This document shows positions 38,100 through 38,831 of a stretch of DNA of 64,000 nt, one piece after another; position 1 is the first letter of the stretch, and the number at the start of each line of letters is the position of its first letter. The stretch is from contig OZ024747.1 in assembly GCA_964016885.1 (NCBI GenBank), positions 27,094,001 to 27,158,000 on the forward strand. The letters run 5' to 3'. Under the pieces are notes generated by a model. That model ran no database searches and had not been told where the DNA came from. It worked only from the letters and a program-made list of their open reading frames with translations. The DNA is from Eledone cirrhosa. Its lineage: Eukaryota. Both the position numbers and the translations under genes were made by a program.

Positions 38100-38827
38100 T
38101 ATAAGTATGTATACGTACATAAATATATGTATACAGACGTACACTAGTATGTATATACATACATACATGCACACATATATATATGTACGTATGGGTGTAC
38201 CGAACATTTATTATAATGCCCGGTTTGTTTGTAAACAAAGCCCGAATTAGTAGCCGTAGTGTTCGGCAACAATCGTTGCCCTTTTGTTCAACACTGACTA
38301 AGGAACGATGAACTAGTTTCTAGCTTATTAGCTGTCATCAACATTGTATACCTTGCTGTCAGTCGATTGAAGGTTTGAAAGTATATACTTTCCTCATGCA
38401 TATTAACGGCTGAGCAGCCTAATTTGCATATCGATTGAGTTAGTCTATATGCAAATTAGGCTGCTCAGCCGTTAATATGCATAAGGAGAGTATATACTTT
38501 CAAACGTTCAATCGACTGACAGGAAGGTATACGATGCTGATGACAGCTAATAAGCTTGAAACTAGTTCATCGTTCCTTTGTCAGTGTTGAACAAAAGGGC
38601 AACGATTGTTGCCGAACACTACGGCTACTAATTCGGGCTTTGTTTACAAACAAACCGGGTATTATAATAAATGTTTGGTAAACCCATACGTACATATATA
38701 TATGTGTGCATGTATGTATGTATATACATACTAGTGTACGTCTGTATATATATATGTATGTACGTATACATGCTTATATTTAAGTATCAGCCATACTAAG
38801 AGTGAGAAATGAAATTTCATTTTTTCC

Positions 38828-38831
<4 letters not shown>
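38100..38831. mobile_element. Retrozyme-like element, copy 2 (head-to-head, ~330-bp arms)
   Basis: 38100-38431 is the inverse of 38447-38778; homologous to 15.9-16.6 kb; HHRs at 38305-38347(-) and 38531-38573(+). Confidence 0.82.
38531..38573 (+). ncRNA. Minimal type I hammerhead ribozyme
   Basis: ACGATG-CTGATGA-cAGCT-aata-AGCTt-GAAAC-ta-GTT-CATCGT. Confidence 0.8.

What the first reader, a model, noticed from the sequence alone, without database searches (positions are those of the whole stretch)
38100..38831. Fixed termini but a variable strand-flip point in all three retrozyme-like copies
Seen: every copy has one end at ...CATACTTA(C/T)A|TA and the opposite, inverted end ~62 nt further along the unit at ...TTTTCCATTT or TTTCAATTT|ATA. 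The inversion point differs (15960, ~38440, ~46930). Both outward-facing ends are sense-strand 3' ends. Inference: two priming events at defined template positions (twin priming or fold-back) on a tandem or circular RNA, rather than a TIR transposon.
Basis: partly seen in the sequence, partly recalled or inferred. Interest (0 to 1): 0.7.

Follow-up and report, generated by a model that had tools for sequence, protein, structure and literature searches.

The report
Two-armed Penelope-type retrozyme insertions
These mirror-image repeats are copies of an abundant non-coding mobile unit with a predicted self-cutting RNA motif, and their two outer ends fall one at each of two fixed sites, likely because a Penelope-type retrotransposon enzyme copies the RNA onto both strands of the cut target, each strand from its own start site.

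Summary
The 429-520-nt unit carries a minimal type I hammerhead motif; a 25-mer of it occurs 23,866 times in this 3.0-Gb genome. All 74 inverted copies with two scorable ends have one end at site A and one at site B; none is A-A or B-B (one doubtful B-B among 53 one-armed copies). A and B are 52-54 nt apart (60-62 in copy 1's subfamily). Flip points scatter, arm lengths are uncorrelated, and 31 of 74 copies cannot come from one fold-back. An autonomous Hydra-type Penelope family here obeys the same rule (17 of 17). This is the published Penelope layout (inverted 5'-truncated copy, one-sided tail, two RT start sites) on a retrozyme. I did not find the strict one-site-per-end rule in seven searches. 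Best reading: both nicked strands of (TA)n prime cDNA, one at A and one at B, on an uncleaved multimeric or circular RNA. The partner enzyme was not identified; expression is untested. The scan noted this layout before in other families of this genome and in other genomes.

The parts
38090..38103 (.). (TA)n target, left side; 38099-38103 is shared with the end of the left arm
   Evidence: sequence
38099..38445 (-). Copy 2 A arm: sense 3' end at site A (unit 377), 5'-truncated at unit ~23-25
38306..38346 (-). Hammerhead motif of the left arm; first core base C changed to T, likely inactive
38444..38446 (.). Inversion joint of copy 2 (unit ~25 joined to unit ~34; about 2 nt overlap)
38444..38833 (+). 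Copy 2 B arm: 5'-truncated at unit ~34, reads through site A (38779), ends at site B
38532..38572 (+). Minimal type I hammerhead motif (intact core, 4-bp stem II, palindromic CTAG helix III); cleavage predicted, untested
   Evidence: (Rfam HH9, 22.5 bits, E 0.0012, below gathering score 52)
38769..38786 (+). Predicted small hairpin with site A in and just after its 4-nt loop
38780..38833 (+). The tail: sequence between sites A and B, present at one end only; site B lies in a predicted asymmetric loop of a long stem
38832..38871 (.). (TA)n target, right side
   Evidence: sequence
15897..16617 (.). Copy 1 (466-nt subfamily): B arm 15897-15961 (-), A arm 15959-16617 (+, 1.4 units); repeated parts 193/193 and 57/57 identical; hammerhead 16334-16374
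46477..47003 (.). Copy 3: A arm 46477-46934 (-, 1.07 units, hammerhead 46692-46732), B arm 46935-47003 (+)
61187..61493 (.). Fourth, diverged (about 78%) inverted copy: B-like left end, right end lost in (GT)n

Best explanation
This is an inverted insertion of a non-coding hammerhead-motif repeat (a retrozyme) with one outer end at each of two fixed sites, likely made by a Penelope-like RT-endonuclease acting in trans that primes cDNA from both nicked strands of a (TA)n target, one strand at site A and the other at site B. Shown: fixed paired ends, scattered joints, arms that cross the hammerhead cut site and exceed one unit, (TA)n target. Inferred: the primer ends pair with 2-5 nt of AT/TA at each start site; the two cDNAs stop independently; their 3' ends are joined to give the flip; the template is one uncleaved multimeric or circular RNA species; an asymmetric (probably dimeric) enzyme assigns one site to each strand.
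For: Pairing: 58 of 58 inverted copies with both ends scorable are A+B; in an A-selected set, 19 of 23 inverted copies have B opposite, 0 have A, 4 are eroded; 74 distinct A+B copies in all. A and B ends abut (TA)n in 79 of 85 and 93 of 99 cases. Arm lengths uncorrelated (rho -0.01); 31 of 74 not nested; 53 A and 45 B arms cross the predicted cut; 24 and 28 exceed one unit. Only 2 of 148 inner ends lie within 5 nt of the cut (3.8 expected). Rare variants shared by both arms: 18 in 13 of 32 copies against a control mean of 0.7, maximum 4; A>G 7 of 18 shared against 14 of 139 unshared, Fisher p 0.003. An autonomous Hydra-type PLE family in the genome gives 17 of 17 A+B pairs with a 97-nt tail; two further PLE loci show a one-sided tail by eye. 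One copy in a non-TA target has a 9-bp TSD (L094), like the 8-10 bp of Adineta PLEs (PMC3846280). In vitro, a PLE nicks and extends both strands and starts RT at two internal sites that bound the tail (PMC11167929).
Against: No autonomous PLE sharing pLTR, hammerhead or tail sequence with this unit was found among the PLE loci examined (30 + 20 + 30 + 14 loci), so the partner is inferred. PMC11167929 saw no difference in start site between top and bottom strand and no homology between primer and template, whereas I infer pairing and short homology. 46 of 137 copies are one-armed; most lack TA at the 5' side and could have another origin. One of 53 one-armed copies (L115:1855) has a 26-nt inverted piece ending near B as well as a B end, a possible B-B exception. 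L009, counted as A+B, has a rearranged A end. 43 of 74 copies are also compatible with fold-back. B-arm inner ends are not uniform (Rayleigh p 0.01). Shared variants could come from gene conversion between arms. Samples were chosen by best hit or motif, not at random.
Confidence: 0.72

Rival explanations
1. One priming event, then fold-back or self-priming of the cDNA (or of an antisense template) makes the inverted arm; the second fixed end is set by endonuclease resolution of the intermediate.
For: Proposed in print: self-priming from palindromes at inverted junctions (PMC3846280, Discussion passage) and EN-mediated resolution for the tail (PMC8557442, section 6). All three window copies and 43 of 74 copies are geometrically compatible. 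Inner ends lie within 45 nt of each other in 24 of 74 (15.7 expected). Shared variants are expected.
Against: 31 of 74 copies have arms that are not nested under either order (10-nt tolerance; lengths in unit coordinates are approximate); arm lengths are uncorrelated. PMC11167929 maps the tail boundaries to RT start sites.
Confidence: 0.1
2. Both strands are primed, but on two separate RNA molecules held by a dimer; or the two primings are sequential, with use of one site blocking its reuse.
For: Most B arms run far past site A (64 of 74 longer than 75 nt) and do not pile up there (4 of 74 at 370-385; 2.8 expected), so collision on one linear unit is not the rule. L120 joins a retrozyme arm to PLE coding sequence without TA between.
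Against: Arms share rare variants far above the cross-copy control, and the own partner is in the top 10% of matches in 25 of 37 copies. Transcripts from one source locus would mimic this.
Confidence: 0.12
3. MITE or TIR DNA transposon, or DNA-level palindrome formation after insertion.
For: Long inverted repeats; TA target.
Against: The two ends differ by the tail, interiors and arm lengths vary (38-1369 nt), arms contain tandem units and hammerhead motifs, and RT-encoding PLEs show the same rule.
Confidence: 0.02

Closest known systems
Insertions of endonuclease-positive Penelope-like elements with inverted pLTR and one-sided tail (PMC3846280, PMC8557442, PMC8969392)
   Same: Head-to-head inverted 5'-truncated copy, tail at one end, partial tandems, (TA)n bias, 9-bp TSD where visible, minimal hammerhead motif.
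   Different: No ORF; tail 52-62 nt rather than 30-40; papers say the tail is 'optional' or 'often' at one end, here it is one end in 74 of 74.
Poseidon PLE of Anolis in vitro (PMC11167929)
   Same: Two internal RT start sites bounding the tail, in a stem-loop; both strands cut and extended; hammerhead cleavage not needed.
   Different: That study reports no strand difference in start site and no primer-template homology; it does not link the two sites to the two ends of one inverted insertion in the text I read.
Metazoan non-LTR retrozymes (PMC7229834; preprint 10.64898/2026.07.22.740005)
   Same: Non-coding 150-450-bp-class tandem units, type I hammerhead, low GC, coexisting PLEs proposed as mobilisers.
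   Different: Unit at or above the upper size range; these papers do not describe inverted arms or tails (word searches); here insertion ends give direct evidence of PLE-type integration.
L1 twin priming (recalled, not read here)
   Same: Both target strands prime; inverted 5' part.
   Different: In L1 the first primer uses the poly(A) end and the second site varies; here both sites are internal and fixed.

Membership tests
Metazoan non-LTR retrozyme | Type I hammerhead motif in each unit | tested here: met
   Core, stems I and II and palindromic helix III seen; Rfam score below gathering; fits the canonical metazoan form in PMC4209133
Metazoan non-LTR retrozyme | Short tandem units, low GC, no protein | tested here: met
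   429/466-nt natural tandems, a 50-unit array; longest ATG ORFs 67 and 113 aa, not searched further
Metazoan non-LTR retrozyme | Self-cleavage of the RNA | not testable with these tools
   Needs in vitro transcription
Metazoan non-LTR retrozyme | Expressed as linear and circular RNA | not testable with these tools
PLE-type insertion | Inverted 5'-truncated copy adjacent at the 5' end | tested here: met
   88 of 137 non-edge elements
PLE-type insertion | Tail at one end | tested here: met
   74 of 74 scorable inverted copies
PLE-type insertion | (TA)n bias; TSD of about 8-10 bp where visible | tested here: met
   172 of 184 A/B ends abut TA; one clear 9-bp TSD among 137 elements, the rest not discernible in TA
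Autonomous PLE | ORF with RT and GIY-YIG endonuclease | tested here: not met
   No such ORF in the unit; it works like a PLE insertion but is non-autonomous
Derivative of a specific PLE family | pLTR sequence shared with an autonomous family | tested here: inconclusive
   No shared pLTR in 94 PLE loci drawn from a few of many families (10,596 GIY-YIG candidates)
MITE / TIR transposon | Equal terminal inverted repeats with a fixed interior | tested here: not met
   Ends differ by the tail; interior varies

The most novel reading that the evidence does not exclude
Penelope-like elements integrate by an obligatorily two-ended, asymmetric reaction: one enzyme complex primes each target strand at its own structured site on a single RNA, so the tail is the footprint of that asymmetry and head-to-head arms are the primary product; animal retrozymes are RNA circles that keep only the two-site signal and are copied round past their own ribozyme from both sites at once.
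Probability: 0.45. Interest if true: 0.72.

Novelty: new member of a known kind. Interest (0 to 1): 0.5.

Why it matters
How PLEs make inverted copies and tails, and what mobilises animal retrozymes, are stated as open in the papers read (PMC8557442 section 15 passages; preprint Discussion; PMC7229834 Discussion passage). The strict A+B rule in a retrozyme and in an autonomous family gives a sharp prediction for the existing in vitro PLE system, argues against the published self-priming idea as the general route, and points to a ~100-nt two-site RNA signal that could be tested as the cis element for trans mobilisation. The layout itself is already in print.

Tried and rejected
Whole-window self-BLAST timed out on microsatellites. 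Whole-window Rfam scan gave only miRNA-like noise in the 150 rows shown of 631. A Pfam accession I recalled for PLE proteins is not in the library. Partner search failed: the Hydra-type family next to the unit in L094 and L120 has a different pLTR and hammerhead. Microhomology at the flip: inconclusive; only 11 of 58 joints were blunt or overlapping under exact extension, which old mutations confound. End-to-end geometry (B arm stopping at A) is true of copy 1 but not general (4 of 74). Inner ends do not mark the hammerhead cut. TSDs cannot be read in TA tracts (19 of 20 candidate hits were TA-like or doubtful). RNA structure support is weak: 1 of 19 pairs has a two-sided change in 8 sequences. 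No structure or complex job was run. MITE rejected.

Full report
Observation. The three copies are as described. Each is two arms of one ~430-470-nt unit joined 5' to 5', with sense 3' ends facing out into (TA)n. Sense is set by a hammerhead motif: intact core, 4-bp stem II, palindromic CTAG helix III (Rfam HH9, E 0.0012, below the gathering score), the form described for metazoan type I hammerheads that work as dimers (PMC4209133, passages). I used a natural monomer from L025 as coordinate system (429 nt): predicted cut at ~158, site A at 377/380, site B at 427/431. A to B is 52-54 nt in copies 2 and 3 and 60-62 nt in copy 1's subfamily.

Family size and end peaks. The genome is 3.0 Gb. A 25-mer of the A-B interval occurs 23,866 times; 200 kb of arbitrary sequence held 2 regions. 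Exact patterns: A end into TA 2,241, A read-through 6,140; B end into TA 405, B read-through 421 (one subfamily); ends in mid-tail 28 places. Reversed-pattern controls were 0 in each.

Pairing rule. I segmented 134 de-duplicated regions from loci L001-L160 and the window into 141 elements and dropped 4 that touch a locus edge. Of 137, 88 are simple head-to-head inversions, 46 one-armed, 3 complex. Of the 88, 58 have both ends at A or B: 29 A-B, 29 B-A, no A-A, no B-B; 30 have at least one eroded end. These loci were chosen by best hit or by the tail motif, which would favour B-B, not hide it. To test A-A, I took the first 30 A-end matches: 23 inverted (19 with B opposite, 0 with A, 4 eroded), 6 one-armed, 1 running off the locus. 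Removing three duplicates gives 74 A+B copies. Among 53 one-armed copies, three have a micro-arm of the complementary class by motif (L032, L044, L290) and one by eye (L041); one (L115:1855) is a possible B-B. L009 has a rearranged A end.

Inner joints. 5' ends take 65 (A) and 66 (B) distinct positions among 74; Rayleigh p 0.37 and 0.01, so scattered, with a mild excess of B arms stopping in the 3' part of the unit (10 of 74 are 75 nt or shorter). Median arm lengths are 318 and 317 unit positions, rho -0.01. 53 A arms and 45 B arms cross the predicted cut, 24 and 28 exceed one unit, and 2 of 148 inner ends lie at the cut. The template was therefore not the cleaved linear monomer; it was an uncleaved multimer or a circle (inference). 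A single fold-back needs one arm nested in the other: 32 fit B-first, 11 A-first, 31 neither. Microhomology at the joint was inconclusive.

One RNA or two. Rare variants (in at most 3 of 74 copies) are shared by both arms 18 times in 13 of 32 copies with enough overlap, against 0.7 for arms of different copies; A>G makes up 7 of 18 shared and 14 of 139 unshared. This points to one RNA species, possibly edited; gene conversion or one source locus are not excluded. Copy 1 is internally identical (193/193, 57/57).

Start sites. A lies in and just after the 4-nt loop of a predicted 6-bp hairpin; B lies in an asymmetric loop of a long stem that closes with the start of the next unit. Covariation is weak (1 of 19 pairs with a two-sided change, 8 sequences). 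Every sub-site ends on an AT or TA that matches the target, giving 2-5 nt of possible primer-template pairing (read directly).

The machinery. The genome has 10,596 GIY-YIG candidates and long RT-GIY-YIG ORFs. One very abundant family has a CxCx5C linker, the Hydra-clade motif of PMC8557442 (passage). In all loci fetched up, its outward-facing end pairs are A+B in 17 of 17, tail 97 nt; L235 and L226, of other families, also show a one-sided tail. The rule is thus a PLE property that the retrozyme shares. No examined family shares pLTR sequence with this unit, so the partner is unknown. L094 shows a 9-bp TSD.

Mechanism. Most likely the PLE enzyme nicks both strands of (TA)n; one 3' end primes at A, the other at B; both cDNAs run independently around the unit; their 3' ends are joined. 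End positions, pairing, independence and read-through are shown; the enzyme, dimer, primer pairing and circularity are inferred.

Known work, and what I saw. PMC3846280 (passages): inverted pLTR, tail optionally at one of them, TSD 8-10 bp, self-priming proposed. PMC8557442 (passages): same layout, tail often at one end, ascribed to EN resolution. PMC8969392 (passages). PMC11167929 (parts 1-2 of 4): both strands cut and extended, two internal starts bound the tail, no strand difference, hammerhead cleavage dispensable. PMC7229834 (passages) and preprint 10.64898/2026.07.22.740005 (part 1 of 5, word search, Discussion): retrozymes as likely PLE passengers, mechanism open. Seven searches found no statement of a strict one-site-per-end rule or of inverted tailed retrozyme insertions. 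I read no supplements; Fig. S2 of PMC11167929, the preprint's closed files, and the 2005 and 2006 PLE reviews, which I did not read, may bear on this. L1 twin priming is recalled. The scan's own unchecked notes report the same layout in other families of this genome and other genomes; I formed the pairing result before reading them.

Verdict. Real, well supported, a new retrozyme family showing a known PLE layout, with a sharper rule than the papers state. Interest 0.5.

Noticed in passing
window 37500-37983: A C/A-rich stretch with a hammerhead-like motif (one core base changed, about 37874-37901) ending in (TA)n just left of the finding; looks like the 3' end of another PLE. No Rfam ribozyme match; no match in fetched loci.
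   Followed up: partly
window 11164 to about 11420 (-): pLTR with hammerhead-like motif and B-type (tailed) end of the abundant Hydra-type PLE family.
   Followed up: partly
window 38041-38089: 49-nt unique stretch between two (TA)n tracts, between the two elements; origin unknown.
   Followed up: no
L094 5033-5647 and 6385-7600: A two-unit retrozyme copy sits antisense inside a PLE ORF with a 9-bp TSD, and its 5' junction is duplicated in inverted form, suggesting the PLE copy was re-mobilised with the passenger.
   Followed up: partly
L120 2044-3445: Retrozyme A arm joined without TA to PLE endonuclease sequence in the same sense, with a PLE B end on the other side: possible template switch or two-RNA chimera.
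   Followed up: partly
L285-L287 (G000:C1:51772379 to about 51793500): Array of 50 units, median unit identity 95%, left end eroded; right end not resolved.
   Followed up: partly
L271, L281, L283: Retrozyme copies lie in or near the (TA)n at PLE ends in 3 of 14 long PLE loci, consistent with a shared target.
   Followed up: no
window 12677(-), 13389(+), 29467(+): Another repeated hammerhead-core-like motif family, also seen near PLE loci.
   Followed up: no
window 60217-60301: Near-perfect 85-nt palindrome.
   Followed up: no
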